A DNA stretch of 64,000 bases from Antedon mediterranea (lineage: Eukaryota > Animalia > Echinodermata), in the NCBI RefSeq assembly GCF_964355755.1, contig NC_092677.1, positions 23,547,175 to 23,611,174 of the forward strand. The letters run 5' to 3'. Made by a program: the position numbers and the translations under genes. A model generated the notes under the pieces. It was not told the DNA's origin and did no database searches. It saw only the letters and a program-made list of their open reading frames with translations. Shown here piece after piece: positions 31,879 to 57,942 of the stretch. The stretch's first letter is position 1. The number at the start of each line of letters is the position of its first letter.

Positions 31879-33438
31879 GACAACATTAACAATATTCAAC
31901 ATAGGCTGAATCATGGCCTTTATACATTAAAAAACTATCTGCTTTATAGAATTTAAAGGACCGATTTATCATTACGCATTTATTAGGACTTTATTGTTCC
32001 TAGAAGAGTATAACTGTATCTACGATGATTGTGTCTCACAAACAGAAATGTTGAAACGACGCTGAAAAACATTAATTTAATATTAATAATAATATTTATT
32101 CGGCAAAAGTACGTTTTACATTTCATCTTGCCAGGAGCAAGTAATAGGCATGCGCCCAAACAGAAAACTGCTCTTACTCCATCATTATTATAAAATACAA
32201 AAATAACAAAAACCAAGTAGTACAAAATTAAAAACAAAACAAAGTTATAATGAAATACACCAATTAGGAATAAGCTGCATTGAATAAACAATATAAATAA
32301 TTTAATATTTTAAAATAAGAAATTTTTGGTGAGTTGGGCTTTAACGTCTGAAATTGTAGCACATTGTTTAATATCATTGGAAAGTTGCTTCCATAATCTA
32401 GGGAAAATTACTTCACAGCCAAAGAAAGCACAGTTGAATTTAAGGAATAGTTTTTATTGATGCCTTCTAATCTTACCATACTTCAAACTTTCGACAAAAT
32501 TGGGGGAAAGATATATTACAATTATTTCCATGAACAGTTGTACAGTAATTTTAGACTAGGGTTAAAAAAAAACTTGTTAAGACCAGGGAAAAGGAATTAT
32601 TAATTATTATCTAATTAATTCCTCCATGTTAAGACATCAGTCTGTAGTGTCTTATCTAAATCCTATATCTAAATACAATCATCGGTATAATAAAGCTTCC
32701 TCCGACATTAAACAAACGGATTCTATCAAAGTAAAATTGTTTATTATTAATTCCATCGGTTTTAGGAATAGTTTATGCTATAATTTTTGCGGCATTTCCT
32801 GTTAACAGTCGGATACAACTGCTTTATCAGTGAGATAGCAATACTGTAATTAACAACTCTATATGTTTATTTTCTTTTTGATTAAAATGTTTATATTTCA
32901 TTATTACTTAATGCAAAAGCCTACATTTTAATTCCAAAAAGCATTGATTTCTACATAATATTTTCAAGTGGTCATTATTGTTTAACTAATTTTAATTATT
33001 GATTTAAAAAAACTTACAATTAAAAGTTAATAATTCGGGTAGACACTAAAGAAAACACATCAGTAGTATTATTGAATGTCGATCGATAAAAATAAATATT
33101 TCTTTAAAAAAATGTAATTAATGTAACATTATAATTTTTCTAGAAATCAATAGAAAGATTGTGAACTGAACATTTTATTCCAATCCGTGCAGAGAGTATT
33201 AAGGAATAAAAATGTTAATTGTACTCACATTTAATGGGAGTCAATAATAAGTACAATTATACATTTAAAACACTGAGTAAAAAAGAAACAAACAAATGGA
33301 TTATGATACTGTACCTACAAAAATAAATTTATTTAATAAAAAGAACTTGTTAAAAATATACTATTATTTACATGACGTCATTCAGGCAGGTTGTACAATG
33401 TTTACGTTAGACTATGAACAATAAAACGTTCTCAATGT

Positions 33439-34199
33439 TTAATCAGCAAGTTCATGAGTATGTAAAAATAAGTTGTTATTATAAGACACGTGATTAGATG
33501 CTGACTGGAGTTCGATAGTCGTTTGATAACTGGTGACGTCTGTCCAGTAGTCTGGTGAGATGCTTAAGAAGTTGTAGTTGAAGACCTCACTCAATTCTTC
33601 AACATTTTTGTCGGAATGTTCTACATCTTCGTGTGTTTCTGATTCGTGTATCATGGCTGTAAAACAAAATAGGTTAAAATAACTTAAAGATGGCTCGTAC
33701 AAGTAAGCGTTGTTCTTAATATAAAAATGAAGAGATTCTAATTAATTATTAAAGAAACAAAGAGGATATATATTTGTTTATAAATGTTTTTCTTAATTTT
33801 AAAATACATAAGTATATTTGATATTTAATTTATACTTATGAGAAACAAGCAACAGTACTTACATGGACATTCCATTTGAAGCTCACGTAATAAATCGACA
33901 TCACTGTCGTCATTGGTCTCACAGTCGCTATCACTGGTATAGTCGTCATCGCTGACCTCACATTCGTCACATGTCATCAGCACATCGGGAGACTCACACA
34001 CTGACGTTATTGAATCACTTGGTAGATGTGGAAAGTATATTCTGAGATCGGAATCCATCTCAGTTTGTAGAAGATCTTCTCTTGATAAATACGGTAGTGG
34101 ACTGTCATCTTCTTCGATGTCATCATGGAAGGTTGTAGAATACATTTCATACCACGGGAGTCTGTTATAGTCACCAATTGAAGATGTTCCAGGATTCAT
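33439..34199 (-). CDS. Two-exon acidic orphan protein, copy 1 (184 aa); exons 34199-33863 and 33656-33439
   Basis: GTAAGT donor and ttttacAG acceptor join the two ORFs in frame (T|CC); the same phase is kept in all copies. Confidence 0.8.
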
Positions 34200-34269
34200 T
34201 GTAGTATTACGGATTAATTGCAGAATACGTAAAACTTGATGTAATTAAGCAGATCGTTGGTTCAGATAT

Positions 34270-34495
34270 TTAGGTTATAGCAGTTGAATGTCTATTGAGA
34301 AATTGATGATAATTCCACAAATCACTTGTTTTTATCACGTGGGTTTACTTTTCCTATTGTTTTAATTATTATTTGTTAGCCAATCAAAATGTGTGAAAAT
34401 TCGCGGTTCCGTCGTAAATCGGTGGCGGAATGACGTTTGATGATTGATAACGCCGCTTTAACAATAGAGACATTATTTAAAACTATAAATACGAG
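34270..34495. promoter_or_regulatory. Conserved promoter block of the array gene (repeated in each unit)
   Basis: Minus-strand TATAA 34275-34279, E-box CACGTG 34336-34341, CCAAT 34380-34384, TTCGCGG 34400-34406, TGACGT 34431-34436, plus-strand TATAAATA 34484-34491. Confidence 0.6.
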
Positions 34496-35053
34496 CTAAT
34501 TATTATATCAAAAAATTAAGATTAAAATAATTAGAAACGTCATAATATTTTAATCCTATACAATATGATGGAATAAGTAAAAACTGTTGAATATATTTAG
34601 GTATATTTTTAAAATAAAATTTGATAAAATAATTTTTGTTCTTCCATTACTTGAAATCAGTTTAAATGAAATATTTTGAATACATTAACTTTATATCTTC
34701 GATTAAATCTTAAAAATTTGCGAAATTATAGGCCTACAATGTTATTATTAAGAAGCTATATCTGATGCAGCCCATATCAGTTATAAGTTAAATTATCTTT
34801 TAAAAAATGCAATTAATTTAAAACTATTATATTTAAAAAAAAATAATAGTGAAGATTGAACTAGTTTAGTGTTTATTCACCCTAAGTTCTTATAGAACTA
34901 AAATAAATGTACAAGCTCTTAATTTGAGTTCATTTAAGTAGCAAGAATATACAGTATAATAGGTTCACAGTAACTAAAGTAATTGTTTGAACCGTTTAAG
35001 CCTATTAAAATTGAAAAAAACTTTGGGCAATTAAAACATTCGTAGTTCGTGAA

Positions 35054-35126
35054 GCCCGGTTAGCTCAGTTGGTAGAGCATCAGACTTTTAATCTGAGGGT
35101 CAAGGGTTCAAGTCCCTTATTGGGCG
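35054..35126 (+). tRNA. tRNA-Lys(UUU)
   Basis: 73-nt cloverleaf, anticodon TTT, intact A and B boxes, downstream T5 terminator; close to the canonical metazoan Lys-TTT sequence. Confidence 0.93.
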
Positions 35127-36448
35127 TAATGTTTTTGACATTTTATTATCTTTTTTAGTACTTAAAAACAACTTATGAATCACAGAACTTTCTGTTATGT
35201 CGCTCAGTTAGAGGATCAAACCTTTGTCTTCTATTAATCTAAATAAGTACATCGATTTAAATATTTTTTGAAACATTATAATTATGTCTTTAGGTTAAAA
35301 TATTTGGAAAATCATACAATGTTACACGCAGCCCGTTTGTTTAAGTTGATATAACCTGTTTACTATCCTATAATATTAGAAATACTCTGAAATATAATCT
35401 TTTAAGTACATTCATGATTACTTGTACATTCATTTAAAACTCTATATATGTTTGTTTTTTTTTAAATTTTACCCATTGTATTTTTTAACTACATGTTCTT
35501 TCCACTTTTATTTCCTTTCTTGCAGTATAAAAATATGTTAATTATTGGTTGTATGTTCGTTGCTACTCTGTATTTCTCTATAACTTGTAGAAATAACTGT
35601 TTAATATTTGTTTTTTAATTTGGTTACCCTACTAAATATAATGTGTTACCAGGAAAGAGTGTTCACTCATCCCTGGTGTTACTATGTCAGTACCAATAAA
35701 TGAAATCAATTCGTTTCTTTCTTGCCGTCGTACTTTGAAAAGTATACTGTATTTTTCTATTGCTGTATTTAGAATTAAAAACCAATGGGCAATTTAAAAC
35801 GAATGGCTTATGTAGTCAACGGGAACCACGGCCGGTTACACACCCACAGTATTATTGTGTTCACATCACAATATCAATACAATTCAATCGGAAACGCCTT
35901 TCTTTTATGAAATATACAACTGGAATATCTATGCTATTACTGTTATTTTGGGCGTTATAAGTAACAAATGATTGATAGAAGTTATTGCTGTACATTATAA
36001 ATTACGCAATTTAAAAAAAAATGTAGGCCTATTTGGTACAAATGTTTCTTTTTCAAAATGCAGTTAATTTAACATTATAATTGTTCTAGAAATCATTAGA
36101 AAGATTGTGATTGAAAATTTTATTCCAATCCATGCAGAGTGTATTAAAGAATATATATGGTAATTGTACTCACATTTAATGGGAGTCAAAATAATATGCG
36201 AAAATACATGACACGAACGAATCTACCATTTATTCTCCCTAAGAGTTATCTAAGTACAATTATACCTTTAAAACGCAGAGTAAAAAAGAAACCAAACAAA
36301 CGAATTATGATAGGTAATAACATAAATTTATTAAATATAAATCACTGGTTAAAACTATAATTTATATACTATTATTTACATGACGTCATTCAGGTCGTAC
36401 AATGTTTACGTTAGCCTATGAACTATTAAAAACGTTCTCAAAGTTTAA

Positions 36449-37181
36449 TCAGCAAGTTCTGTGAGTATGTAAAAATAAGTTGTTATTATAAGACACGTGA
36501 TTAGATGCTGGCTGGAGTTTGGTAGTCAGTTGATAGCTGGTGACGACGTCTGTCCAGTAGTCTGGTGAGATGCTTGAGAAGTTGTAGTTGAAGACCTCAC
36601 TCCATTCCATTTCTTTATCATTGTTCTTTGTACCTTCTTCGTTTTGTGTGATGGATTCAGATTCGTCTAACATGGCTGTAAAAGATAATCAAATTATTTA
36701 ATATAAATATATAAAAATGTAACGACAACGTGATTAAAAGAATTTTATGAAAGACATTATTACATTATAATAATGTTCGTCCTTCTATTAGTATTTTAAA
36801 CTTTAGAGAAACTTTTAGTATGATAAATACACAACAGTACTTACAAGGACATCCCATTTGAAGCTCACGTAATAAATCGGCATCACTGTCGTCACTGGTC
36901 TCACAGTCGCTATCACTGGCATAGTCGTCATCGCTGACCTCACATTCGTCACATGTCATTAACACATCGGGAGACTCACACACTGGCGTTGTAGAATCAC
37001 TTGGTAGATGTGGAAAGTAGATTCTGAGATTTGAATCCATTTCAGTTTGTAGAAGATCTTCTCTTGACAAATACGGTAGTGGACTGTCATCTTCTTCGAT
37101 GTCATCATGGAAGGTTGTAGAATACATTTCATACCACGGGAGTCTGTTATAGTCACCAATTGAAGATGTTCCAGGATTCAT
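36449..37181 (-). CDS. Acidic orphan protein, copy 2 (187 aa); exons 37181-36845 and 36675-36449
   Basis: Canonical GT-AG intron, in-frame join. Confidence 0.8.
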
Positions 37182-37731
37182 TGTAGTATTACGGATTAAT
37201 CGCAGAATACGTAAAACTTGACGTAATTAAGCAGATCGTTGGTTCAGATATTTACGTTATAGCAGTTGAATGTCTATTGAGAAATTGATGACAATTCTAC
37301 AAATCACTTGTTTTTATCACGTGGGTTTACTTTCCCTATTGTTTTAATTATTATACGTTAGCCAATCAAAATGTGTGAAAATTCGCGGTTCCGTCGTAAA
37401 TCGTTTGATGATTGATAACGCCGCTTTAACAATAGAGACATTATTTAAAACTATAAATACGAGCTAATTATTATATCAAAAAATTAAGATTAAAATAATT
37501 AGAAACGTCATAATATTTTAATCCTATACAATATGATGGAATAAGTAAAAACTGTTGAATATATTTAGGCCTATTTTTAAAATAAAATTTTATAAAATAA
37601 TTTTTGTTCTTGCATTACTTGAAATCAGTTTAAATGAAATATTTTGAATACATTAACTTTATATCTTAGGTTAAATCTTGAAAATTTGCGAAATTATAGG
37701 CCCACAATGTTATTATGAAGCTATATCTGAT

Positions 37732-37762
37732 CATATAGAGATATTACTATAATATCTCTATG
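37732..37762. mobile_element. 31-bp palindromic insertion with 7-bp TSD (ATCTGAT); duplicated at 41036-41066
   Basis: Absent from units 1, 4 and 5, which have a single ATCTGAT (empty site). Confidence 0.85.
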
Positions 37763-38054
37763 ATCTGATGCAGCCCATATCAGTTATAAGTTAAATTATC
37801 TTTTAAAAAATGCAATTAATTTAACACTATTATATTTTCTAAAAAAATAATAGTAAAGATTGAACTAGTTTAGTGTTTATTCACCCTAAGTTCTTATAGA
37901 ACTAAAATAAATGTACAAGCTCTTAATTTGAGTACATTTAAGTAGCAAGAATATACAATATAATAGGTTCACAGTAACTAAAGTAATTGTTTGAACCATT
38001 TAAGCCTATTAAAATTTAAAAAAACTTTGGGCAATGAAAACATTCGTAGTTCAT

Positions 38055-38106
38055 GAGCATCAGACTTTTAATCTGAGGGTCAAGGGTTCAAGTCCCTTAT
38101 TGGTCG
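38055..38106 (+). pseudogene. 5'-truncated tRNA-Lys(UUU)
   Basis: Lacks the first ~21 nt including the A box; also has an acceptor-stem mutation. Confidence 0.85.
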
Positions 38107-38208
38107 TATTCGTTTTTTGCTTCCAGTATCTTTCATGTCAATTTTATACTTTAGGCCAATTGAGATAAAAAACAACTTCTAAGAATGAGAACAAGGTATT
38201 TTTATGAA

Positions 38209-38281
38209 GCCCGGTTAGCTCAGTTGGTAGAGCATCAGACTTTTAATCTGAGGGACAAGGGTTTAAGTCCCGTATTGGGCG
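38209..38281 (+). pseudogene. tRNA-Lys(UUU) with mutated B box and T stem (probable pseudogene)
   Basis: GTTTAAG replaces GTTCAAG; T-stem mismatch. Confidence 0.75.
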
Positions 38282-38385
38282 TATTTGTTTTTTGCTTCCA
38301 TTATCTTTGAAGTCAATTTTATACTTTAGGCCAATTGAAATTTAAAAAAAAACGTCTAAGAATGAGAACAAGGTATTTATATGAA

Positions 38386-38457
38386 GCCCGGTTAGCTCAG
38401 TTGGTAGAGCATCAGACTTTAATCTGAGGGTCAAGGGTTCAAGTCCCTTATTGGGCG
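38386..38457 (+). tRNA. tRNA-Lys with a 1-nt deletion in the anticodon loop (pseudogene or homopolymer error)
   Basis: 72 nt, loop CTTTAA; the sister copy at 41691 is intact. Confidence 0.6.
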
Positions 38458-39752
38458 TAATATTTTTTTCCATTTTATTATCTTTTTTAGTACTTAAAAA
38501 CAACTTATGAATCACAGAACTTTCTGTTATGTCTCTCAGTTAGAGGATCACACCTTTATCTTCTATTAATCTAAATAAGTACATCGATTTAAATATTTTT
38601 TGAAACATTATAATTATGTCTTTAGGTTACAATATTTGGGAAATCATACAATGTTACACGCAGCCCGTTTGTTTAAGTTGATATAACCTGTTTACTATCC
38701 TATAATATTAGAAATACTCTGAAATATAATCTTAATCTTCATTTAAAACTCTATATATGTTTGTTTTTTTTAATTTTACCCATTATATTTTTTAACTACA
38801 TGTGTTTCTTTCCTCTTTTATTTCCTTTCTTGCAGTATAAAAATATGTTAATTATTGGTTGTATGTTCGTTGCTACTCTGTATTTCTCTATAACTTGTAG
38901 AAATAACTGTTTAATATTTGTTTTTTATTTGGTTACCCTACTAAATATAATGTGTTACCAGGAAAGAGAGTTCACTCATCCCTGGTGTAACTATGTGAGT
39001 ACCAATAAATTAAATCAATTCGTTTCTTTCTTGCCGTGGTACTTTGAAAAGTATACTGTATTTTTCTATTGCTGTATTTAGAATTAAAAACCAATGGGCA
39101 ATTTAAAACGAATGGCTTATATAGTCAACGGGAACCACGGCCGGTTACACACCCACAGTATTATTGTGTTCACATCACAATATCAATTCAATCGGAAACG
39201 CCTTTCTTTTATGAAATATACAACTGGAATATCTTTGCTATTACTGGTATTTTGGGCGTTATAAGTAACAAATGATTGATAGAAGTTATTGCTGTACATT
39301 ATAAATTACGCAATTTAAAAAAAAATGTAGGCCTATTTGGTACAAATGTTTCTTTTTCAAAATGCAGTTAATTTAACATTATAATTGTTCTAGAAATCAT
39401 TAGAAAGATTGTGATTGAAAATTTTATTCCAATCCATGCAGAGTGTATTAAAGAATATATATGGTAATTGTACTCACATTTAATGGGAGTCAAAATAATA
39501 TGCGAAAATACATGACACGAACGAATCTACCATTTATTCTCCCTAAGAGTTATCTAAGTACAATTATACCTTTAAAACGCAGAGTAAAAAAGAAACAAAA
39601 CAAACGAATTATGATAGGTAATAACATAAATTTATTAAATAAAAATCACTGGTTAAAACTATAATTTATATACTATTATTTACATGACGTCATTCAGGTC
39701 GTACAATGTTTACGTTAGCCTATGAACTATTAAAAACGTTCTCAAAGTTTAA

Positions 39753-40485
39753 TCAGCAAGTTCTGTGAGTATGTAAAAATAAGTTGTTATTATAAGACAC
39801 GTGATTAGATGCTGGCTGGAGTTTGGTAGTCAGTTGATAGCTGGTGACGACGTCTGTCCAGTAGTCTGGTGAGATGCTTGAGAAGTTGTAGTTGAAGACC
39901 TCACTCCATTCCATTTCTTTATCATTGTTCTTTGTACCTTCTTCGTTTTGTGTGATGGATTCAGATTCGTCTAACATGGCTGTAAAAGATAATCAAATTA
40001 TTTAATATAAATATATAAAAATGTAACGACAACGTGATTAAAAGAATTTTATGAAAGACATTATTACATTATAATAATGTTCGTCCTTCTATTAGTATTT
40101 TAAACTTTAGAGAAACTTTTAGTATGATAAATACACAACAGTACTTACAAGGACATCCCATTTGAAGCTCACGTAATAAATCGGCATCACTGTCGTCACT
40201 GGTCTCACAGTCGCTATCACTGGCATAGTCGTCATCGCTGACCTCACATTCGTCACATGTCATTAACACATCGGGAGACTCACACACTGGCGTTGTAGAA
40301 TCACTTGGTAGATGTGGAAAGTAGATTCTGAGATTTGAATCCATTTCAGTTTGTAGAAGATCTTCTCTTGACAAATACGGTAGTGGACTGTCATCTTCTT
40401 CGATGTCATCATGGAAGGTTGTAGAATACATTTCATACCACGGGAGTCTGTTATAGTCACCAATTGAAGATGTTCCAGGATTCAT
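39753..40485 (-). CDS. Acidic orphan protein, copy 3 (187 aa); exons 40485-40149 and 39979-39753
   Basis: Protein identical to copy 2. Confidence 0.8.
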
Positions 40486-41358
40486 TGTAGTATTACGGAT
40501 TAATCGCAGAATACGTAAAACTTGACATAATTAAGCAGATCGTTGGTTCAGATATTTACGTTATAGCAGTTGAATGTCTATTGAGAAATTGATGACAATT
40601 CTACAAATCACTTGTTTTTATCACGTGGGTTTACTTTCCCTATTGTTTTAATTATTATACGTTAGCCAATCAAAATGTGTGAAAATTCGCGGTTCCGTCG
40701 TAAATCGTTTGATGATTGATAACGCCGCTTTAACAATAGAGACATTATTTAAAACTATAAATACGAGCTAATTATTATATCAAAAAATTAAGATTAAAAT
40801 AATTAGAAACGTCATAATATTTTAATCCTATACAATATGATGGAATAAGTAAAAACTGTTGAATATATTTAGGCCTATTTTTAAAATAAAATTTTATAAA
40901 ATAATTTTTGTTCTTGCATTACTTGAAATCAGTTTAAATGAAATATTTTGAATACATTAACTTTATATCTTAGGTTAAATCTTGAAAATTTGCGAAATTA
41001 TAGGCCCACAATGTTATTATGAAGCTATATCTGATCATATAGAGATATTACTATAATATCTCTATGATCTGATGCAGCCCATATCAGTTATAAGTTAAAT
41101 TATCTTTTAAAAAATGCAATTAATTTAACACTATTATATTTTCTAAAAAAATAATAGTAAAGATTGAACTAGTTTAGTGTTTATTCACCCTAAGTTCTTA
41201 TAGAACTAAAATAAATGTACAAGCTCTTAATTTGAGTACATTTAAGTAGCAAGAATATACAATATAATAGGTTCACAGTAACTAAAGTAATTGTTTGAAC
41301 CATTTAAGCCTATTAAAATTTAAAAAAACTTTGGGCAATGAAAACATTCGTAGTTCAT

Positions 41359-41410
41359 GAGCATCAGACTTTTAATCTGAGGGTCAAGGGTTCAAGTCCC
41401 TTATTGGTCG
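41359..41410 (+). pseudogene. 5'-truncated tRNA-Lys(UUU)
   Basis: Same lesion as 38055. Confidence 0.85.
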
Positions 41411-41512
41411 TATTCGTTTTTTGCTTCCAGTATCTTTCATGTCAATTTTATACTTTAGGCCAATTGAGATAAAAAACAACTTCTAAGAATGAGAACAAGG
41501 TATTTTTATGAA

Positions 41513-41585
41513 GCCCGGTTAGCTCAGTTGGTAGAGCATCAGACTTTTAATCTGAGGGACAAGGGTTTAAGTCCCGTATTGGGCG
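41513..41585 (+). pseudogene. tRNA-Lys(UUU) with mutated B box
   Basis: Same as 38209. Confidence 0.75.
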
Positions 41586-41690
41586 TATTTGTTTTTTGCT
41601 TCCATTATCTTTGAAGTCAATTTTATACTTTAGGCCAATTGAAATTTAAAAAAAAAACGTCTAAGAATGAGAACAAGGTATTTATATGAA

Positions 41691-41763
41691 GCCCGGTTAG
41701 CTCAGTTGGTAGAGCATCAGACTTTTAATCTGAGGGTCAAGGGTTCAAGTCCCTTATTGGGCG
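41691..41763 (+). tRNA. tRNA-Lys(UUU)
   Basis: Intact 73-nt copy with T-run terminator. Confidence 0.93.
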
Positions 41764-43055: not shown

Positions 43056-43767
43056 TCAGCAAGTTCTATGAGTATGTAAAAATAAGTTGTTATTATAAGA
43101 CACGTGATTAGATGCTGGCTGGAGTTTGGTAGTCAGTTGATAGCTGGTGACGACGTCTGTCCAGTAGTCTGGTGAGATGCTTGAGAAGTTGTAGTTGAAG
43201 ACCTCACTCCATTCCATTTCTTTATCATTGTTCTTTGTACCTTCTTCGTTTTGTGTGATGGATTCAGATTCGTCTAACATGGCTGTAAAAGATAATCAAA
43301 TTATTTAATATAAATATATAAAAATGTAACGACAACGTGATTAAAAGAATTTTATGAAAGACATTATTACATTATAATAATGTTCGTCCTTCTATTAGTA
43401 TTTTAAACTTTAGAAAATCTTTTAGTATGATAAACACACAACAGTACTTACAAGGACATCCCATTTGAAGCTCACGTAATAAATCGGCATCACTGTCGTC
43501 ACTGGTCTCACGGTCGCTATCACTGGTATAGTCGTCATCGCTGACCTCACATTCGGGAGACTCACACACTGGCGTTGTAGAATCACTTGGTAGATGTGGA
43601 AAGTAGATTCTGAGATTTGAATCCATTTCAGTTTGTAGAAGATCTTCTCTTGACAAATACGGTAGTGGACTGTCATCTTCTTCGATGTCATCATGGAAGG
43701 TTGTAGAATACATTTCATACCACGGGAGTCTGTTATAGTCACCAATTGAAGATGTTCCAGGATTCAT
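43056..43767 (-). CDS. Acidic orphan protein, copy 4 (180 aa, lacks DVLMTCD); exons 43767-43452 and 43282-43056
   Basis: In-frame 21-bp deletion; splice sites intact. Confidence 0.8.
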
Positions 43768-43999
43768 TGTGGTATTACGGATTAATTGCAGAATACGTAA
43801 AACTTGACGTAATTAAGCAGATCGTTGGTTCAGATATTTACGTTATAGCAGTTGAATGTCTATTGAGAAATTGATGACAATTCTACAAATCACTTGTTTT
43901 TATCACGTGGGTTTACTTTCCCTATTGTTTTAATTATTATTTGTTAGCCAATCAAAATGTGTTAAAATTCGCGGTTCCGTCGTAAATCGGTGGCGGCAT

Positions 44000-44305
44000 C
44001 AATCAATCAATCAATCGTTCGATTTATATAGCGCCATTCCAACATTCATTGCTCATGGCGCTGTAGACAAAATCAGAAAAGGTGAGTTTTGAGTAGTGAC
44101 TTAAAGTGACTCAATAACGATGTGTGTTTAATGTTCAAGGGTAGGTGGTTCCAGAGCCTAGGTCCAGCAACACTGAAAGTCCGATCTCTCCAACTATGTT
44201 TGCTCCTTGGAATGTCCAGTAGCACCTGATGACTAGATCTTAGTTCTCGCTTTCCCTTCTTGACTGTCAACAATTCTGAGACATATTTTGGAGCGTAACT
44301 ATTTA
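44000..44305 (-). mobile_element. 5'-truncated L2/CR1-group LINE with (TTGA)n tail
   Basis: ORF2 C-terminus ...RTFSVAGPRLWNHLP...FKSLLKTHLF*; GGCAT TSD at 43995-43999 and 44306-44310; absent from other units. Confidence 0.9.
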
Positions 44306-44932
44306 GGCATGACGTTTGATGATTGATAACGCTGCTTTAACAATAGAGACATTATTTAAAACTATAAATACGAGCTAATTATTATATCAAAAAATTAAGA
44401 TTAAAATAATTAGAAACGTCATAATATTTTAATCCTATACAATATGATGGAATAAGTAAAAACTGTTGAATATATTTAGGTATATTTTTAAAATAAAATT
44501 TGATAAAATAATTTTTGTTCTTCCATTACTTGAAATCAGTTTAAATGAAATATTTTGAATACATTAACTTTATATTTTCGATTAAATCTTAAAAATTTGT
44601 GAAATTATAGGCCTACAATGTTATTATTAAGAAGCTATATCTGATGCAGCCCATATCAGTTATAAGTTAAATTATCTTTTAAAAAATGCAATTAATTTAA
44701 CACTATCATATTTTCTAAAAAAATAATAGTGAAGATTGAACTAGTTTAGTTTTTATTCACCCTAAGTTCTTATAGAACTAAAATAAATGTACAAGCTCTT
44801 AATTTGAGTGCATTTAAGTAGCAAGAAGATACAATATAATAGGTTCACTTAACTAAAGTAATTGTTTGAACCATTTAAGCCTATTAAAATTGAAAAAAAC
44901 TTTGGGCAATTAAAACATTCGTAGTTTGTGAA

Positions 44933-45005
44933 GCCCGGTTAGCTCAGTTGGTAGAGCATCAGACTTTTAATCTGAGGGTCAAGGGTTCAAGTCCCTTATT
45001 GGGCG
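44933..45005 (+). tRNA. tRNA-Lys(UUU)
   Basis: Intact 73-nt copy. Confidence 0.93.
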
Positions 45006-46334
45006 TAATGTTTTTTACATTTTATTATCTTTTTTAGTACTTAAAAACAACTTATGAATCACAGAACTTTCTGTTATGTCTCTCAGTTAGAGGATCAAAC
45101 CTTTGTCTTCTATTAATCTAAATAAGTACATCGATTTAAATATTTTTTGAAACATTATAATTATGTCTTTAGGTTAAAATATTTGGAAAATCATACAATG
45201 TTACACGCAGCCCGTTTGTTTAAGTTGATATAACCTGTTTACTATCCTATAATATTAGAAATACTCTGAAATATAATCTTTTAAGTACATTCATGATTAC
45301 TTGTACATTCATTTAAAACTTTATATATGTTTGTTTTTTTTTAATTTTACCCATTGTATTTTTTAACTACATGTGTTTCTTTCCACTTTTATTTCCTTTC
45401 TTGCAGTATAAAAATATGTTAATTATTGGTTGTATGTTCGTTGCTACTCTGTATTTCTCTATAACTTGTAGAAATAACTGTTTAATATTTGTTTTTTAAT
45501 TTGGTTACCCTACTAAATAAAATGTGTTACCAGGAAAGAGTGTTCACTCATCCCTGGTGTTACTATGTCAGTACCAATAAATGAAATCAATTCGTTTCTT
45601 TCTTGCCGTGGTACTTTGAAAAGTATACTGTATTTTTCTATTGCTGTATTTAGAATTAAAAACCAATGGGCAATTTAAAACGAATGGCTTATGTAGTCAA
45701 CGGGAACCACGGCCGGTTACACACCCACAGTATTATTGTGTTCACATCACAATATCAATACAATTCAATCGGAAACGCCTTTCTTTTATGAAATATACAA
45801 CTGGAATATCTATGCTATTACTGTTATTTTGGGCCTTATAAGTAACAAATGATTGGTAGAAGTTATTGCTGTACATTATAAATTAAGCAATTTAAAAAAA
45901 AATGTAGGCCTATTTGGTACAAATGTTTCTTTTTCAAAATGCAGTTAATTTAACATTATAATTGTTCTAGAAATCATTAGAAAGATTGTGATTGAAAATT
46001 TTATTCCAATCCGTGCAGAGTGTATTAAAGAATAAATATGGTAATTGTACTCACATTTAATGAGAGTCAAAATAATATGCGAAAATACATGACACGAACG
46101 AATCTACAATTTATTCTCCCTAAGAGTTATCTAAGTACAATTATACCTTTAAAACGCAGAGTAAAAAAGAAACAAAACAAACGAATTATGATAGGTAATA
46201 ACATAAATTTATTAAATAAAAATCACTGGTTAAAACTATAATTTATATACTGTACTATTATTTACATGACGTCATTCAGGTCGTACAATGTTTACGTTAG
46301 CCTATGAACTATTAAAAACGTTCTCAAAGTTTAA

Positions 46335-47046
46335 TCAGCAAGTTCTATGAGTATGTAAAAATAAGTTGTTATTATAAGACACGTGATTAGATGCTGGCTG
46401 GAGTTTGGTAGTCAGTTGATAGCTGGTGACGACGTCTGTCCAGTAGTCTGGTGAGATGCTTGAGAAGTTGTAGTTGAAGACCTCACTCCATTCCATTTCT
46501 TGATCATTGTTCTTTGTACCTTCTTCGTTTTGTGTGATGGATTCAGATTCGTCTAACATGGCTGTAAAAGATAATCAAATTATTTAATATAAATATATAA
46601 AAATGTAACGACAACGTGATTAAAAGAATTTTATGAAAGACATTATTACATTATAATAATGTTCGTCCTTCTATTAGTATTTTAAACTTTAGAGAAACTT
46701 TTAGTATGATAAACACACAACAGTACTTACATGGACATCCCATTTGAAGCTCACGTAATAAATCGGCATCACTGTCGTCACTGGTCTCACGGTCGCTATC
46801 ACTGGTATAGTCGTCATCGCTGACCTCACATTCGGGAGACTCACACACTGGCGTTGTAGAATCACTTGGTAGATGTGGAAAGTAGATTCTGAGATTTGAA
46901 TCCATTTCAGTTTGTAGAAGATCTTCTCTTGACAAATACGGTAGTGGACTGTCATCTTCTTCGATGTCATCATGGAAGGTTGTAGAATACATTTCATACC
47001 ACGGGAGTCTGTTATAGTCACCAATTGAAGATGTTTCAGGATTCAT
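46335..47046 (-). CDS. Acidic orphan protein, copy 5 (180 aa); exons 47046-46731 and 46561-46335
   Basis: Same structure as copy 4. Confidence 0.8.
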
Positions 47047-47278
47047 TGTGGTATTACGGATTAATTGCAGAATACGTAAAACTTGACGTAATTAAGCAGA
47101 TCGTTGGTTCAGATATTTACGTTATAGCAGTTGAATGTCTATTGAGAAATTGATGACAATTCTACAAATCACTTGTTTTTATCACGTGGGTTTACTTTCC
47201 CTATTGTTTTAATTATTATTTGTTAGCCAATCAAAATGTGTGAAAATTCGCGTTTCCGTCGTAAATCGGTGGCGGCAT

Positions 47279-47584
47279 CAATCAATCAATCAATCGTTCG
47301 ATTTATATAGCGCCATTCCAACATTCATTGCTCATGGCACTGTAGACAAAATCAGAAAAGGTGAGTTTTGAGTAGTGACTTAAAGTGACTCAATAACGAT
47401 GTGTGTTTAATGTTCAAAGATAGGTGGTTCCAGAGCCTAGGTCCAGCAACACTGAAAGTCCGATCTCCCCAACTATGTTTGCTCCTTGGAATGTCCAGTA
47501 GCACCTGATGACTAGATCTTAGTTCTCGCTTTTCCTTCTTGACTGTCAACAATTCTGAGAGATATTTTGGAGCGCAACTATTTA
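47279..47584 (-). mobile_element. Duplicate of the 306-bp L2-like LINE insertion
   Basis: Same breakpoints and GGCAT TSD as 44000-44305. Confidence 0.9.
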
Positions 47585-48170
47585 GGCATGACGTTTGATG
47601 ATTGATAACGCCGCTTTAACAATAGAGACATTATTTAAAACTATAAATACGAGCTAAATATTATATCAAAAAATTAAGATTAAAATAATTAGAAACGTCA
47701 TAATATTTTAATCCTATACAATATGATGGAATAAGTAAAAACTGTTGAATATATTTAGGCCTATTTGTAAAATAAAATTTGATAAAATAATTTTTGTTCT
47801 TCCATTACTTGAAATCAGTTTAAATGAAATATTTTGAATACATTAACTTTATATCTTCGATTAAATCTTAAAAATTTGCGAAATTATAGGCCTACAATGT
47901 TATTATTATGAAGCTATATCTGATGCAGCCCATATCAGTTATAAGTTAAATTATCTTTTAAAAAATGCAATTAATTTAAAACTTTTATATTTTCTAAAAA
48001 AATAATAGTGAAGATTGAACTAGTTTAGTGTTTATTCACCCTAAGTTCTTATAGAACTAAAATAAATGTACAAGCTCTTAATTTGAGTACCTTTAAGTAG
48101 CAAGAATATACAGTATAATAGGTTCACAGTAACCTAACTTTTGGAAATGAAACAATTGTAAGCACATGAA

Positions 48171-48243
48171 GCCCGGTTAGCTCAGTTGGTAGAGCATCAG
48201 ACTTATAATCTGAGGGTCATGGGTTCGAATCCCTTATTGGGCG
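48171..48243 (+). tRNA. tRNA-Lys-derived gene with TAT (Ile-type, UAU) anticodon
   Basis: Loop CT-TAT-AA (anticodon 48204-48206), B box GGTTCGAATCC, one T-stem mismatch. Confidence 0.75.
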
Positions 48244-49528
48244 TAATAATTTTTTCCATTTTATTATCTTTTTTAGTACTTAAAAACAACTTATGAATAA
48301 GAGAACATTCTGTTATGCTGCTCAGTTAGAGGATGAAACCTTTGTCTTCTATTAATCTAAATAAGTACATCGATTTAAATATTTTTAGAAACATTATAAT
48401 TATGTCTTTAGGTTAAAATATTTGGAAAATCATACAATGTTTGTTTAAGTTGATATAACCTGTTTACTATTCTATAATATTAGAAATCTAAAATATAATC
48501 TTTTAAGTACATTCATGATTACTTGTACATTCATTTAAAACTTTATATATGTTTGTTTTTTAATTTTACCCATTTTTAACTACATGTGTTTCTTTCCACT
48601 TTTATTTCCTTTCTTGCAGTATAAAAATATGTTAATTATTGGTTGTATGTTTGTTGATACTCTGTATTTCTTTATAATTTTCTAGAAATAGGCCTAAATG
48701 TTTAATATTTGTTTTTTAATTTGGTTATCACACTAAATATAGTGTGTTACCAGGAAAGAGTGTTCACTCATCCCTGGTGTTACTATGTCAGTACCAATAA
48801 ATGAAATCAATTCGTTTCTTTCTTGCCGTGCTACTTTGAAAAGTATACTGTATTTTACTATTGCTGTATTTAGAATTAAAAACCAATTAAAACGAATGGC
48901 TTATGTAGTCAACGGGAACCACGGCCGGTTACACACCCACAGTATTATTGTGTTCACATCACAATATCAAAACAATTCAATCGGAAACGCCTTGCTTTTA
49001 TAAAATATACAACTGGAATATCTATGCTATTACTGTTATTTTGGGCGTTTTAGTATCAAATGATTGATAGAAGTTATTGCTGTACATTATAAATTACGCA
49101 ATTTAAAAAAAAAGTAGGCCTTTTTGGTACAAATGTTTCTTTTTCAAAATGCAGTTAATTTAACATTATAATTTTTCTAGAAATCAATAAAAGGATTGTG
49201 ATTGAACATTTTATTCCTATCCGTGCAGAGTGTATTTAAGAATAAACATGGTGATTGTGCCCACATTTAATGGGAGTCAAGATAATATGCGACAATACAG
49301 GACACGAACAAATCTACAATTTAATGTCCCTAAGAGTTATTTAAGTACAATTATACATTTAAAACGCAGAGTAAAAAAGAAACAAAACAAACGAATTATG
49401 ATAGGTAATAAAATAAATTTATTAAATAAAAATCACTGGTCTTATATACTTTATAATTTTACTATTATTTACATGACTTCATTCAGGTACTTCAATGTTA
49501 CGTTAGCTATGAACAAATAAAAGTTTAA

Positions 49529-50214
49529 TCAGCAAGTTCTATGAATATGTAAATATAAATTGTTATTATAAGACACGTGATTAGATGCTGACTGGAATTT
49601 GGTAGTCGTTTGATAACTGGTGACGTCTGTCCAGTAGTCTGGTGAGATGCTTAAGAACTTGAAGACCTCATTGCATTCCATTTCTTGATCAATAGCACCT
49701 TCTTCGTTTTGTGTAATGAGAATTTGAGAATCATCTAACATGGCTGAAAAAGAAAAACAAATACTGTATTATAAATAAAAACAAAGTATCTTTCAGTAAT
49801 TTCTGATTAAAAATGAATACATTCTAACATTTTAAGATAAATTTCAAAAAATATCTAAACACTAGAAAAGTACTTACAAGGACATCCCATTTGAAGCTCG
49901 CGTAATAAATCGGCATCACTGTCGTCACTGGTCTCACGGTCGCTATCACTGGTATAGTCGTCATCGCTGACCTCACATTCGTCACATGTCATTAACACAT
50001 CGGGAGACTCACACACTGACGTTATTGAATCACTTGGTAGATGTGGAAAGTAGATTCTAAGATCTGAATCCATCTCAGTTTGTAGAAGATCTTCTCTTGA
50101 CAAATACGGTAGTGGACTGTCATCTTCTTCGATGTCATCTTGGAAGGTTGTAGAATACATTTCATACCACTGGAGTCTTTCATGGCAACCAATTGAAGAT
50201 GTTCCTGTATTCAT
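49529..50214 (-). CDS. Acidic orphan protein, copy 6 (183 aa, divergent); exons 50214-49878 and 49743-49529
   Basis: Different intron sequence but the same splice phase; internal indels relative to copy 2 are in frame. Confidence 0.8.
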
Positions 50215-50936
50215 TGTAGTATTTACTGGTTAATTGCACAATACGTAAAACCTATCGTAATTATGCAGATCGTTGAGATTTTTACGTTATAGCAGTTGAA
50301 GGTCTAATGACAAATTGATAAAAGCTCCACATAACACTTGTTTTTATCACGTGGAGGTCCTTTACGCTTGTGTTTTATCCTAATGTGTTAGCCAATCAAA
50401 ATGTGTGAAAATGCGCGGTTTCCTAAATCGGCCGCGGCATGACGTTTGATGATTGATAACGCCGCTTTAACAATAGAGATATTATTTTACTATAAATACG
50501 AGATAATTATTATATCAAAGAATGAAAAGTTTAAAATAAATAATAATAATAATATTTTAATCCTATACAATGATGGAATAAGTAAAAACTTTTGAATATA
50601 TAGGCCTATTTTTAAAATATAATAAAATAAATGTTTTTCTTTCATTACTTGAAATAAGCGCATCAATTTAAATGAAACATTTTGACTACATGTCTTGACG
50701 TTAAATCTTGAAATTTAAAAAAATAATAGTGAAGATTGAACTAGTTTAGTGTTTATTCATTTTAAGTTCTTATAGAACTAAAATAAATGTACAAGCTCTT
50801 AATTTGAGTGCATTTAAGTAGCAAGAATATACAATAATATAATAGGTTCACAGTAACTAAAGTAATTGTTTGAACCATTTAAGCCTATTAAAATTTAAAA
50901 AAACTTTGGGCAATGAAAACATTGGTAGTTCATGAA

Positions 50937-51009
50937 GCCCGGTTAGCTCAGTTGGTAGAGCATCAGACTTTTAATCTGAGGGTCAAGGGTTCAAGTCCCT
51001 TATTGGGCG
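50937..51009 (+). tRNA. tRNA-Lys(UUU)
   Basis: Intact 73-nt copy. Confidence 0.93.
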
Positions 51010-51111
51010 TATTCGTTTTTTGCTTCCAGTATCTTTCATGTCAATTTTATACTTTAGGCCAATTGAAATAAAAAACAACTTCTAAGAATGAGAACAAGGT
51101 ATTTTTATGAA

Positions 51112-51184
51112 GCCCGGTTAGCTCAGTTGGTAGAGCATCAGACTTTTAATCTGAGGGTCAAGGGTTCAATTCCCTTATTGGGCG
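51112..51184 (+). tRNA. tRNA-Lys(UUU), T-loop variant TTCAATT
   Basis: 73-nt cloverleaf with T-run terminator. Confidence 0.9.
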
Positions 51185-51377
51185 TAATGTTTTTTACATT
51201 TTATTATCTCTTTTTTAGTACTTAAAAAAAACTTATGCGTCACAGAACTTTCTGTTATGTCGCTCAGTTTGTAGAGGATCAAACCCTTTTCTTCTATTAA
51301 TCTAAATACGTACGGATTTAAATATTTTTTAATACATTATATATATATATATATATTTAATATATTATATATTATTA

Positions 51378-51478
51378 TTGTCATCTTCTTCGATATCATC
51401 TTGGAACGTTGTAGAAGAATACATTTCATACCACTGGAGTCTTTCATGGTAACCAATTGAAGATGTTCCAGGATTCAT
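51378..51478 (-). pseudogene. Truncated copy 7 of the acidic orphan gene
   Basis: MNPGTSSIGYHERLQWYEMYSSTTFQDDIEEDD breaks off at an (AT)n tract; the promoter block is retained to ~51745. Confidence 0.85.
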
Positions 51479-54400
51479 TGTAGTATGACGGATTAATTGC
51501 AGAATACGTAAAACTTGACGTAATTAAGCAGATCGTTGGTTCAGATATTTACGTTATAGCAGTTGAATGTATATTGACAAATTGATGACAACTCCACAAA
51601 TAATTTGTTTTTATCACGTGGGTTTACTTTTCCTATTGTTTTAATCATTATTTGTTAGCCAATCAAAATGTGTGAAAATTCGCGGTTCCAAAATCGGTCG
51701 CGGTATGACATTTGATGATTGATAACGCCGCTTTAACAATAGAAATATAAAACAATAGGCCTTTGTTGTATTGCGTGAAAAACACATTATGCAATAAAAA
51801 TTAAAATATTATAGGCCTATATAATTATAAAAAGGTATTTAAGGTAAGTCTATTAGGTTTTTGTTATTTTAAAAATAGAATACTTAATATAAAAATACCA
51901 TTGTTGATAAATATAAAGTAATCCTTATTACGTCCACATGTAAGTCAGTAAATAATAGTAAGTAATTAAATGAATACATTTGCTACTAACAAATACCTAC
52001 TATTTGAAGTTACTATACAGATACTTATGGAAACTTATCTTCTAATTTTAGATATAAGTCTAATAAGTATTAATCTAAAAAAATCGCATCAGTTTAAATG
52101 AAACATTTTGAATACATTATATTTATGTCTTGATGTTAAATCTTGAAACTTATCATAGGCAATCAATGTTATTATGAAAGATATCTGTGATGCAGCCTAT
52201 ATCGGTTATCAGTTAAATTATTATTATTATTTTAAAAAAGGCAATTAATTTAACATTATTGTTTTTTTCTAAAAACGATTCAACTAGTAGTTCATGTTTT
52301 TTTCACTTTAAGAACTAAAAATATATGTAGGCCTACTTAGCTCTTATTTTGAGTGCATTTAAGTAGCAAGAATAATATATACAGTATCATATAGGTTAAA
52401 GTAATTGTTTGTACCATTTAGGCTAATTAAGATAAAAAAAGCTTTAGGAAATGAGAACATTAATTTCAATTCAACTTTAGCTGCAAAATGCCACATTCAA
52501 CAAACCTAACTCCTGCCCTGGACAGTTCAAATGTAGTAACTTTTCCTAGTACAATTCCAATCATGTTATACTTCATTACGCCAGTATTTCCGCCCCTCTT
52601 CCTCCCTCCCAACACATCCCAGATACTGGGTGATGTGGTTAAGACGTTTCTAGTACAAATTATGTTAGCCATCACTCCCAACCCATAATTCCTCAGTAGC
52701 AGTTTTCAAATGTAGTTTAAAACATTCCCAGTACAGTTTCGGCCATGGTGATAGGCCTACATCCCCATCCCCATCCACAAACTCTCAAATACTTTAACAA
52801 TTTCCTACCACATAATTCTGGTCAATTTGATACTACCCCTAACCTCTAAGCAAAATCCCCACTATCCCCTCAACCCCAACTCCCCCACCCTATCTCCCCA
52901 CCCGCTCTTCTACCAAATTTGGATCCAAGATGGCGGATGATGTTGAAATACAGTTTAGAACTTCCAGGTAAAATCAAACAACAGTCAATAATATGCTGCA
53001 ATACATGATACAACAAATCTACAATTTAATCTCCTAAGAGTTATTTAAGTACAATTATACCTTTAAAACACAGAGTAAAAATTAAACAAAACAAACGAAT
53101 TATTATAGTTAATAACATAAATTTATTAAATAAAAATCACTGGTCTTATATACTTTATAATTATACTATCAATACATGACGTCATTCAGGTACTTCAATG
53201 TTTACGGCTATGAACAATTTAAAACGTTCTCAAAGTTTAATCAGCAAAACCTAAAAGACATAGAGCTAACTTATTGATCTGTTATTTGATAACTAGGCCT
53301 AGTACTGTATAATCGTGAATGATGATATACGCGCCCGACGTTTCACTGGTTGAATTATCCATTTCTTTCTTTTTTGGGTAAAGGGCACGAGAACAGATAG
53401 CGACCGTTAGAACAGCTGTAAATAAAATGTTTTTTTAACACATTTTAGTTTGTATTTGCCCCAAGTCTCGCATCACAAGCAGTAATCAAGATACATCCTA
53501 TAAATATCATATTAACTGCTGCACTACAGATCAATATGTCGGTCGGTTCGTCGGTCGGTAAAAGTCGGAAAATCAAACGATGACTATTACAGCACAATAG
53601 ATGTCGCCTATATAGTGAAACGGTAGAACCTGAGTGTGTGACGTCACATGATAATCATAGCAGAAGGTATGTCGAGCTAAATGTTGAAGTTATGGGTGAT
53701 CAAACATTTGAACGTCGTATTAATAATGGATAATCAAAATACTCATAACATACCTATTAATTGTCTTCTTTATACCGGTCATAAGCGTAGCCGGATGAAA
53801 GGGTAAGGGGTGATGAGGGAGTAAATTTGTAAAATCAAGGTACATGCATGGTAAACTTTAAAAAGGTGCCAAGACAACTGTTACAGACTCGTATCAGATG
53901 ACTGTCAATAGTCTGTTATGATCTACAATGAGACACCTCCATAATCTTGTGGAAAGTTGATAATTATATAAAAATAGATTATTTTTAATGTTTGTTTCCA
54001 AGAATCTCGATATCCTTTCTCCTCCTGTAAAAGTAGATTGTAGGAGAAATGTGTAGCTGAGTTAATTCAGAATAGACAACTTTTGATTATTAAAAAGCAG
54101 CTACATACATTTTTTTTAGCTTACTTCATGTATGTAGATTTAACGAAAGATTAAGAATAATGAAATAAAAGATTCGCCAGAAACTTTGCCTATAATGTGT
54201 TTTAAAGTTCTTTTGTCTTTTTATAAATACTTGCTTTAACAAATTTATCGGTAGGCTTCTCTACTATTCTATTTTTTAATAGACCTATACGGGTATTTTG
54301 TAAATATAAAAAACTTTATCATTTTGTCTTAGGCCTTATGTGTTTTGAAGTTATTTTTACTATTTATAAATATTAATAAAATATAATACCAATAAATATT

Positions 54401-57700: not shown

Positions 57701-57942
57701 ATCGAAAAAGAATCGTTCAAAATATACTGATATTTTTGTCGATAACCAATTTGTCCCAATGGATGTTGAGCCATTACGAGTTAAGAATTGACGCATTGTT
57801 TTATCCGCTCGAACGGACAGTTTACGGTAAAATGTCCTGGTACCTTCTTCATCACGTGACAGGCCCAATTGTTTCGTTTTACTATTTTCATTCAGCAACT
57901 TGTCTTTTTGAAATTTGGATAGCAGTATCCTTAATTATTTGA
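54790..57942 (+). CDS. Otopetrin-like proton channel, 5 exons (54790-54884, 55253-55524, 56062-56233, 56614-56705, 57110-57942), 487 aa
   Basis: All introns GT-AG with consistent phases. Otopetrin motifs: RFAITQILVTNLSHW...E, PYLMDCTIEYCLIAA...MW, FLSITNLSQW, YG...W, P..FYYFHSATCLFEIW. Confidence 0.88.
56270..56390. mobile_element. Intronic foldback MITE
   Basis: tcactagataacatctaactgactattga / tcaatagtcagttagatattatctagtga; related pieces near 53890 and 56875. Confidence 0.65.

What the first reader, a model, noticed from the sequence alone, without database searches (positions are those of the whole stretch)
33100..53247. Amplified cassette pairing an orphan acidic two-exon gene with divergent tRNA-Lys(UUU) genes
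Seen: six ~3.3-kb units each hold a spliced 180-187 aa gene back-to-back with 1-3 tRNA-Lys genes. The six-frame ORF track splits the gene in two, but GT-AG splicing joins it in frame in every copy. Introns of copies 1, 2-5 and 6 differ strongly, while splice phase and the internal reading frame are preserved, which suggests selection on the protein. Established: tRNA genes can act as chromatin barriers, and some embryonic or germline genes are amplified as macrosatellites. Inference: this is an undescribed multicopy Pol II + Pol III cassette, possibly a dosage-amplified embryonic/germline factor or a selfish or virus-derived unit. I do not recognise the protein.
Basis: partly seen in the sequence, partly recalled or inferred. 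Interest (0 to 1): 0.85.

Follow-up and report, generated by a model that had tools for sequence, protein, structure and literature searches.

The report
Feather-star acidic-gene and tRNA tandem array
A feather-star genome carries six side-by-side copies of a small acidic-protein gene, with relatives found only in another feather star, each next to lysine tRNA genes; the block was likely multiplied and reshuffled by ordinary unequal recombination, with the tRNA likely a passenger and the protein's job still untested.

Summary
Observation confirmed: six tandem units (33094-51340, plus decayed pieces to 53247), each with a minus-strand two-exon ORF of 180-187 aa and divergent tRNA-Lys genes. The gene is real but not a strict orphan: four paralogues lie on one contig of the crinoid Anneissia japonica (39-44% identical); no other convincing relative was found, and none in viral contigs. 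A profile built from Anneissia alone favours the spliced form, and 7 of 8 coding indels keep frame against 11 of 51 non-coding ones. dN/dS is below 1 only in exon 1. Six of 11 tRNA copies are truncated or altered and the protein has 1-3 lysines, so a functional Pol II + Pol III cassette is unsupported, though linkage in Anneissia could not be tested. The protein is predicted disordered with short conserved motifs, likely an intracellular adaptor. Expression was not shown. The scan had not noted this on other DNA. Verdict: an undescribed crinoid gene family in an ordinary kind of array.

The parts
33094..53247 (.). Whole array: five full units of 2.9-3.3 kb, a shortened sixth (to about 51340) and relics of further units
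   Evidence: self-BLAST, unit alignment, relic BLAST
33439..34199 (-). Gene copy 1: exon 1 33863-34199, intron 33657-33862, exon 2 33439-33656; 184 aa; a 1-nt deletion near the stop changes the last residues
36449..37181 (-). Gene copy 2: exon 1 36845-37181, intron 36676-36844, exon 2 36449-36675; 187 aa
39753..40485 (-). Gene copy 3: exon 1 40149-40485, intron 39980-40148, exon 2 39753-39979; 187 aa, same protein as copy 2
43056..43767 (-). Gene copy 4: exon 1 43452-43767 (21-nt in-frame deletion), intron 43283-43451, exon 2 43056-43282; 180 aa
46335..47046 (-). Gene copy 5: exon 1 46731-47046 (same deletion), intron 46562-46730, exon 2 46335-46561; 180 aa
49529..50214 (-). Gene copy 6: exon 1 49878-50214, intron 49744-49877, exon 2 49529-49743; 183 aa; N-terminus closest to the Anneissia proteins
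34336..34386 (-). Likely proximal promoter of copy 1: E-box-type CACGTG at 34336 and CCAAT box at 34378, both kept in all six units and in the relic although the copy-6 promoter differs by 17-18% (motif names recalled)
35054..35126 (+). tRNA-Lys(UUU), unit 1, intact, T5 run just downstream
   Evidence: (72.2 bits)
38047..38457 (+). Unit 2 tRNA triplet (175-bp sub-repeat): 5'-truncated copy, three-substitution copy (38209-38281), copy lacking one base in the anticodon loop (38386-38457)
41351..41763 (+). Unit 3 tRNA triplet: truncated copy, three-substitution copy (41513-41585), intact copy (41691-41763)
44933..45005 (+). tRNA-Lys(UUU), unit 4, intact
48171..48243 (+). Unit 5 tRNA: Lys body with anticodon TAT and three further changes, one breaking a T-stem pair; likely decaying
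   Evidence: (70.1 bits)
50937..51184 (+). Unit 6 tRNA pair: intact copy (50937-51009) and copy with one T-loop change (51112-51184)
43995..44310 (-). Inserted 3' end of a LINE-like retroelement with a 5-bp target-site duplication, upstream of copy 4 (L2/CR1-type assignment recalled; no Pfam match)
47274..47589 (-). The same insertion upstream of copy 5
51379..51743 (-). Relic: first third of exon 1 plus promoter, cut at a TA microsatellite
52088..52461 (+). Relic of the spacer before the tRNA (69-73% identical to live units); it stops at the tRNA 5' flank and no tRNA follows
52983..53247 (-). Relic of the 3' untranslated region of a further copy

Best explanation
This is a tandem array of six copies of a two-exon gene for a small acidic protein shared with another feather star, each beside tRNA-Lys genes, likely expanded and homogenised piecewise by unequal crossing-over and gene conversion, with the tRNA likely carried along as a neighbour rather than as a working partner. 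Shown: the units, the spliceable ORFs, the Anneissia homologues, the mosaic pattern and the decay of several tRNA copies and of the last units. Inferred: three old gene lineages (copy 1, copies 2-5, copy 6) survive as intron types; exchange later replaced promoter, spacer or tRNA segments between them; the middle type multiplied most recently (copies 4 and 5 share an insertion and a deletion, copies 2 and 3 are 99.8% identical). For the protein I commit, at about 0.35, to an intracellular disordered adaptor whose conserved acidic-aromatic N-terminal block (about residues 13-58) folds on binding a partner, most likely as a transcriptional cofactor without a DNA-binding domain of its own. Copy number of this gene may be favoured, since Anneissia also keeps four paralogues.
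For: Gene is real: Anneissia japonica LOC117108445, 446, 473 and 496, all listed with one contig of 625,361 bp; 39-44% identity over the spliced length, 74% over 51-54 aa of the N-terminal block, 45 columns invariant in 9 of 9 proteins. An HMM built from the four Anneissia proteins scores the spliced form above the unspliced one in 4 of 4 copies tested (79.0 vs 73.3, 88.6 vs 75.4, 85.6 vs 72.6, 90.1 vs 79.9 bits), and of three exon-2 frames the spliced one scores best (5.7-11.3 bits vs at most 1.6). Coding indels: 7 of 8 are multiples of three against 11 of 51 non-coding, Fisher p 0.0006. Exon 1 dN/dS is 0.22 for copies 1-2 (8 synonymous, 7 replacement; p 0.006) and 0.34 for copies 1-6 (p 0.02). 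Mosaic: the odd unit changes along the repeat, unit 1 in exon 2 head and intron (41 private sites), unit 6 in the promoter (71), unit 5 around the tRNA (21); neighbouring informative sites are more compatible than shuffled ones (0.30 vs 0.47, p 0.0002, 41 sites, 5 of 6 units used). Window and Anneissia copies form separate groups (100/100). Passenger tRNA: 6 of 11 copies degenerate or altered, relic spacer without tRNA, only 1-3 Lys codons per gene. Protein: AlphaFold2 mean pLDDT 37.8 with three short helices (Anneissia protein, 7-row alignment); all five window proteins tested fall on the disordered side of the charge-hydropathy line, with no hydrophobic leader; published activation-domain rule (PMC10550315, passages) met at residues 9-64 in 5 of 5 window proteins tested.
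Against: dN/dS for the whole gene is 0.61-0.77 between the old lineages and not significant; exon 2 gives 0.6-1.1; exon 1 of copies 2-6 gives 0.69 (p 0.33); with transition bias allowed, the copy 1-6 signal weakens to p 0.05-0.07. Splicing and expression rest on homology, not on reads. The activation-domain rule is met by 60-96% of shuffles of the same proteins, falls in a different region in two Anneissia proteins and is missed by one, so it shows composition only; low pLDDT from a 7-row alignment is also expected without disorder. For a real role of the tRNA: copies with 14-18 of 40 differences in the 5' flank keep 0-1 differences in the tRNA body; unit 6 matches the other units near the tRNA (1-9%) but not in its promoter (up to 27%); the gene-tRNA layout outlasted intron divergence to near randomness. 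Clustering of compatible sites can also arise from uneven rates.
Confidence: 0.62

Rival explanations
1. The tRNA gene is a working part of the unit: a Pol III/TFIIIC-bound site that would insulate or open the back-to-back promoter, or would stall replication forks and so seed the exchanges that amplify the protein gene.
For: All six units keep the layout. Duplication recurred around the tRNA at three scales: 175 bp, a relic of about 0.58 kb (relic spacer vs post-tRNA DNA, score 112 against 58.6 +/- 7.8, 0 of 150 shuffles reach it; direct comparison 79 against 50, 1 of 300) and 3.3 kb. The tRNA neighbourhood of unit 6 is homogenised while its promoter is not. Fork stalling at tRNA genes is named as a possible stimulus of copy-number change in yeast (PMC11790251, passage in Discussion); a human tDNA repeat is implicated as a boundary element (PMC4041453, abstract).
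Against: Units 2 and 5 have no intact Lys gene as assembled, yet their ORFs and promoter motifs are intact; the tRNA is 0.7-1.2 kb from the start codon and that spacing tolerates a 316-bp insertion; any tandem unit keeps whatever it contains.
Confidence: 0.17
2. The array is at heart an old tRNA-Lys dosage array, and the protein gene is the hitch-hiker whose extra copies are nearly neutral.
For: Nested tRNA duplications; tRNA bodies conserved across diverged flanks; whole-gene dN/dS not significantly below 1; neutral drift of tRNA array size is argued for Arabidopsis (PMC2886086, abstract).
Against: 6 of 11 tRNA copies are damaged but 6 of 6 full gene copies are open; Anneissia keeps four paralogues of the protein gene.
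Confidence: 0.1
3. The protein is a fast-diversifying defence or recognition factor in the manner of sea-urchin SpTransformer genes.
For: Two exons, tight cluster, distinct intron types, conserved exon 1 and variable exon 2 recall SpTrf (PMC8634487, passages); the first 75 nt of exon 2 differ by 16-40% between lineages.
Against: No hydrophobic leader, no GA or GAT microsatellite in 32001-54000, no SpTrf among the 6 hits of the exhaustive profile search, exon-2 dN/dS near 1 rather than above it at equal rates, copies 2-5 almost identical.
Confidence: 0.06
4. The unit is a selfish or virus-derived element, or part of the copy number is an assembly artefact.
For: No relatives outside crinoids. 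Units 2 and 3 differ by only 4 substitutions and 3 one-base indels in 3.3 kb, and several letters private to units 2 and 3 are replaced in all listed contigs of three runs of one sample.
Against: 0 of 48 viral and 0 of 67 metagenome pattern matches are relatives; no terminal repeats among 8 weak inverted pairs; ragged ends. Contigs of runs X2-X4 hold unit-1, unit-2/3, unit-4/5 and other intron variants side by side, so several copy types exist as DNA.
Confidence: 0.05

Closest known systems
Anneissia japonica uncharacterised proteins LOC117108445, LOC117108446, LOC117108473, LOC117108496
   Same: Same length (182-192 aa), same order of conserved motifs from start to stop, acidic, several paralogues on one contig.
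   Different: 39-44% identity; they group apart from the window copies; their exon structure and tRNA neighbours could not be seen; no function assigned.
Arabidopsis chromosome 1 tRNA t-unit array (PMC2886086; abstract and outline read)
   Same: Tandem units with tRNA genes, unequal crossing-over, concerted evolution within each species.
   Different: Its units hold three tRNA genes and, by the abstract, no protein gene; 27 units.
Human 1q23.3 tDNA variable tandem repeat (PMC4041453; abstract and outline read)
   Same: Kilobase-sized tandem units containing tRNA genes, unstable copy number.
   Different: GC-rich 7.3-kb units with a conserved CTCF site; here AT-rich 3.3-kb units built round a protein gene; boundary function untested here.
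Sea-urchin SpTransformer (Sp185/333) clusters (PMC8634487; passages read)
   Same: Echinoderm, small two-exon genes in tandem segmental duplications, intron types, conserved exon 1 and variable exon 2.
   Different: No leader peptide, no element mosaic, no GA microsatellite edges, no sequence similarity, and tRNA genes in the unit.
Acidic activation domains (PMC10550315; passages read)
   Same: Acidic, predicted disordered, with clustered W/F/Y/L residues; published rule met at residues 9-64.
   Different: No DNA-binding domain or basic stretch; the rule is met as often by shuffles; activity untested.

Membership tests
Tandem array under unequal crossing-over and gene conversion | Head-to-tail units of similar length | tested here: met
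Tandem array under unequal crossing-over and gene conversion | Relationship between units changes along the unit (mosaic) | tested here: met
   p 0.0002 on 41 informative sites; sliding windows
Tandem array under unequal crossing-over and gene conversion | Copies group by species | tested here: met
   100/100; only two species available
Tandem array under unequal crossing-over and gene conversion | Decayed units beside intact ones | tested here: met
Tandem array under unequal crossing-over and gene conversion | Copy number varies between individuals | tested here: inconclusive
   contigs show other combinations of variants but give no copy number
Functional Pol II + Pol III cassette | Intact tRNA gene in every unit with an intact ORF | tested here: not met
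   units 2 and 5; the unit-2 defect is one base in a T run and may be an assembly error
Functional Pol II + Pol III cassette | Linkage conserved in another species | not testable with these tools
   no crinoid genome DNA available
Functional Pol II + Pol III cassette | Protein rich in the codon that the tRNA reads | tested here: not met
   1-2 AAA codons in 181-188
SpTransformer | Hydrophobic leader encoded by exon 1 | tested here: not met
   best 10-residue hydropathy in the first 35 aa is -0.45 to 0.16
SpTransformer | GA/GAT microsatellites at duplication edges | tested here: not met
Viral or mobile cargo | Relatives in viral contigs | tested here: not met
   (a pattern-based scan; misses distant relatives)
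Viral or mobile cargo | Terminal repeats or defined element ends | tested here: not met
Acidic activation domain protein | 39-aa tile rule for charge and W/F/Y/L | tested here: inconclusive
   met in 8 of 9 proteins, but also in 20-96% of their shuffles
Acidic activation domain protein | Activates a reporter when tethered to DNA | not testable with these tools
   needs a bench assay

The most novel reading that the evidence does not exclude
A crinoid-specific acidic transcriptional regulator is kept at high and changing copy number by a built-in tRNA-Lys gene that both insulates its promoter and seeds recombination, making a self-amplifying two-polymerase cassette conserved across feather stars.
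Probability: 0.12. Interest if true: 0.7.

Novelty: new member of a known kind. Interest (0 to 1): 0.3.

Why it matters
It supplies an undescribed, crinoid-restricted gene family that is multi-copy in both species where it is seen, with a conserved 45-residue block that can be tested directly, and a compact record of how a tandem array turns over (old intron types, converted spacers, dying tRNA copies, an anticodon-shifted copy). It would matter more widely only if the tRNA linkage proved conserved or causal, which would link Pol III genes to amplification of a neighbouring protein gene in an animal.

Tried and rejected
No whole genome was held, so other copies and other tRNA-Lys genes in this genome are unknown. 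Run search: no RNA holder listed; 5 rows from 2 studies, one only guessed to be RNA. Contigs of four runs laid on unit 2 (24, 67, 43 and 66 laid): none of the 8 joints listed matches the splice junction; the guessed-RNA run X1 holds intron and upstream promoter sequence, so it contains genomic DNA or unspliced RNA and tells nothing about splicing; it covers 17 of 30 bins, mainly the gene body, which I do not count as expression. Contig depth was not used as copy number. No reads lie over the tRNA genes, so their expression and the one-base anticodon-loop loss in unit 2 stay open. Pfam: nothing for exon 1 or exon 2; best E 0.23 for 2 of 7 aligned members. PDB sequences: 3 hits, E 0.38-0.95, taken as chance. 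Exhaustive profile search: 6 hits, 2 from Anneissia; the other 4 are long proteins with 4-7 short matched stretches (two read and seen to be repetitive, two not read) and were dropped as likely noise. Longer proteins: none among 7994 scored, weak evidence. ESM Atlas: one cluster named C2TA fragment at 0.76, below its noise level; the window protein itself could not be searched there. The fold was too poor for a structure search. Rfam below threshold in 33000-36500: four weak matches, best a snoRNA at 23.6 bits against a cut-off of 40, inside exon 1; rejected. A weak hairpin at 35648-35675 (-6.7 kcal/mol) lacks the end motif I recall for Helitrons; rejected. LIR-, PIP- and LxCxE-like motifs (definitions recalled) are not kept across all copies; only LIR and LxxLL patterns were scanned. 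Literature: 0 papers name the Anneissia locus or protein ids; 0 hold all terms for a co-duplicated tRNA and protein gene array or for the recalled NBPF/tRNA duplications; some searches gave only analogues in their listings. No supplements were read; those of the Anneissia genome paper (PMC7351957, passages read) may hold expression data. A tRNA-derived SINE reading was rejected because the copies are full cloverleaves followed at once by a T run.


Full report
What is there. The window is AT-rich animal DNA; otopetrin fragments lie to the right of the array. From 33094 it holds five units of 2946-3305 bp and a sixth cut at about 51340. Each has a minus-strand ORF split by a phase-1 GT-AG intron, giving 180-187 aa with 38-45 acidic and 5-9 basic residues, and plus-strand tRNA-Lys sequences 723-1166 bp from the start codon. 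Beyond 51340 lie relics: the first third of exon 1 with its promoter, an old spacer that stops where a tRNA should begin, and a 3' untranslated region.

The gene is real and has crinoid relatives. Exon 1 found one protein among 5 candidates, Anneissia japonica LOC117108445. Cluster look-ups and profile searches added LOC117108446, 473 (two isoforms) and 496, all listed with a contig of 625,361 bp. An exhaustive profile search of 1.84 billion representatives gave 6 hits, 2 of them these proteins and 4 likely noise; longer proteins, viral contigs and metagenome contigs gave none. The spliced window proteins align with the Anneissia ones from start to stop at 39-44% identity, with 45 invariant columns, mostly in an N-terminal block. 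An HMM made only from Anneissia prefers the spliced to the unspliced form in 4 of 4 copies tested and picks the same exon-2 frame. Seven of 8 coding indels keep frame against 11 of 51 non-coding ones (p 0.0006); the exception lies a few codons from the stop of copy 1. Substitution tests are weaker: dN/dS is 0.22-0.34 in exon 1 for copy 1 against copies 2, 4 and 6, but 0.69 for copies 2-6, near 1 in exon 2, and not significantly below 1 for the whole gene. An E-box-type and a CCAAT motif are kept in all seven promoter copies, in blocks longer than chance between units 2 and 6 (p 0.0015 and 0.0003). No read evidence for splicing was obtained.

The array is a mosaic. But units 1 and 2 differ by 2-4% in promoter and spacers and 4% in exon 1, against 36% in the intron, 32% in the head of exon 2 and 10-12% in the 3' region. 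Unit 6 differs by 12-18% in its promoter regions but 3-5% just before the tRNA; unit 5 is close to units 2-4 in the gene and is the outlier round the tRNA. Private sites shift accordingly, and a compatibility test on 41 informative sites from five units gives p 0.0002. I infer three old lineages, visible as intron types, whose flanks were exchanged later. The middle type multiplied last: copies 4 and 5 share a 21-nt deletion and a 316-bp LINE-like insertion with a 5-bp target duplication (the LINE class is recalled, Pfam gave nothing), and units 2 and 3 differ at 7 places in 3.3 kb. Window and Anneissia copies group by species. Contigs of three runs of one sample carry several of these variants, so multiple copy types exist as DNA, but some letters private to units 2 and 3 are absent from the listed contigs, so the exact count of six is not independently confirmed.

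The tRNA. Four copies are identical full cloverleaves with a T run just behind, and a fifth has one T-loop change (72.2-72.7 bits). Bodies stay the same across 5' flanks that differ at 14-18 of 40 places, so at least some are likely working genes. The other six are truncated, mutated, short of one anticodon-loop base or shifted to anticodon TAT. As assembled, units 2 and 5 have an intact ORF and no intact Lys gene. The protein uses 1-3 Lys codons, so codon supply is not the link. In favour of an active role, duplication recurred round the tRNA at 175 bp, about 0.58 kb and 3.3 kb, and fork stalling at tRNA genes is a proposed stimulus of copy-number change in yeast (PMC11790251, passage). That stays a minority reading until linkage in another crinoid can be checked.

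What the protein likely does. No Pfam or PDB match. AlphaFold2 gives pLDDT 37.8 and three short helices, two on conserved motifs. It has no leader or membrane segment and no basic stretch. Conserved islands of acidic and aromatic residues in a variable acidic chain suggest binding motifs that fold on a partner. The published activation-domain rule (PMC10550315, passages) is met by the conserved block in all five window proteins tested, but also by 60-96% of their shuffles, so it is only compatible. I put a transcriptional cofactor at about 0.35; a histone- or polycation-binding acidic protein, or another adaptor, share most of the rest (inference).

Comparison and verdict. The array behaves like the Arabidopsis tRNA array (PMC2886086, abstract) and shares architecture with SpTransformer clusters (PMC8634487, passages) but fails SpTrf membership; it is not shown to be a boundary repeat like human 1q23.3 (PMC4041453, abstract). 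Searches for the Anneissia ids and for a co-duplicated tRNA and protein gene array found no paper; supplements were not read. Earlier notes of this scan call this genome a feather star and show nothing like this stretch elsewhere. Verdict: an undescribed crinoid gene family in a known kind of array; interest 0.3, with a 0.12 chance of a functional cassette worth 0.7.

Noticed in passing
window 48171-48243: tRNA copy with a Lys body and an Ile(TAT) anticodon; if it were charged with lysine it would misread AUA codons, but from recalled identity rules loss of the middle U makes charging unlikely, and it has drifted as much as its flanks.
   Followed up: partly
window 56923-57939 and 61196-61471 (possibly also 55224-55553, 60301-60579, 63017-63586): Otopetrin proton-channel ORFs (Pfam PF03189, E 2e-23 and 2e-6); the first is a single 339-aa stretch; likely a local otopetrin cluster. 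The last three gave no otopetrin match.
   Followed up: partly
window 7751-9683: A 27-bp minisatellite of about 73 copies with long open frames on both strands.
   Followed up: no
window 59217-59549: A 12-bp repeat of about 28 copies between otopetrin-like ORFs.
   Followed up: no
window 24492-25844: Broken ORFs that look like the remains of a non-LTR retrotransposon (recalled resemblance; no Pfam match above cut-off).
   Followed up: partly
window 29320-29631: Short ORF resembling a HIRAN-like transposon-associated domain (recalled); Pfam gave only a sub-threshold SPMIP8 hit.
   Followed up: partly
window 52470-52985: C-rich insert with strong GC skew that replaces the tRNA of the relic unit; it has no match elsewhere in the window.
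   Followed up: partly
P0004 and P0008 (Anneissia LOC117108473): The two isoforms differ by 13 residues inside the conserved block, where the window genes have no intron; the Anneissia gene may have a different exon structure.
   Followed up: no
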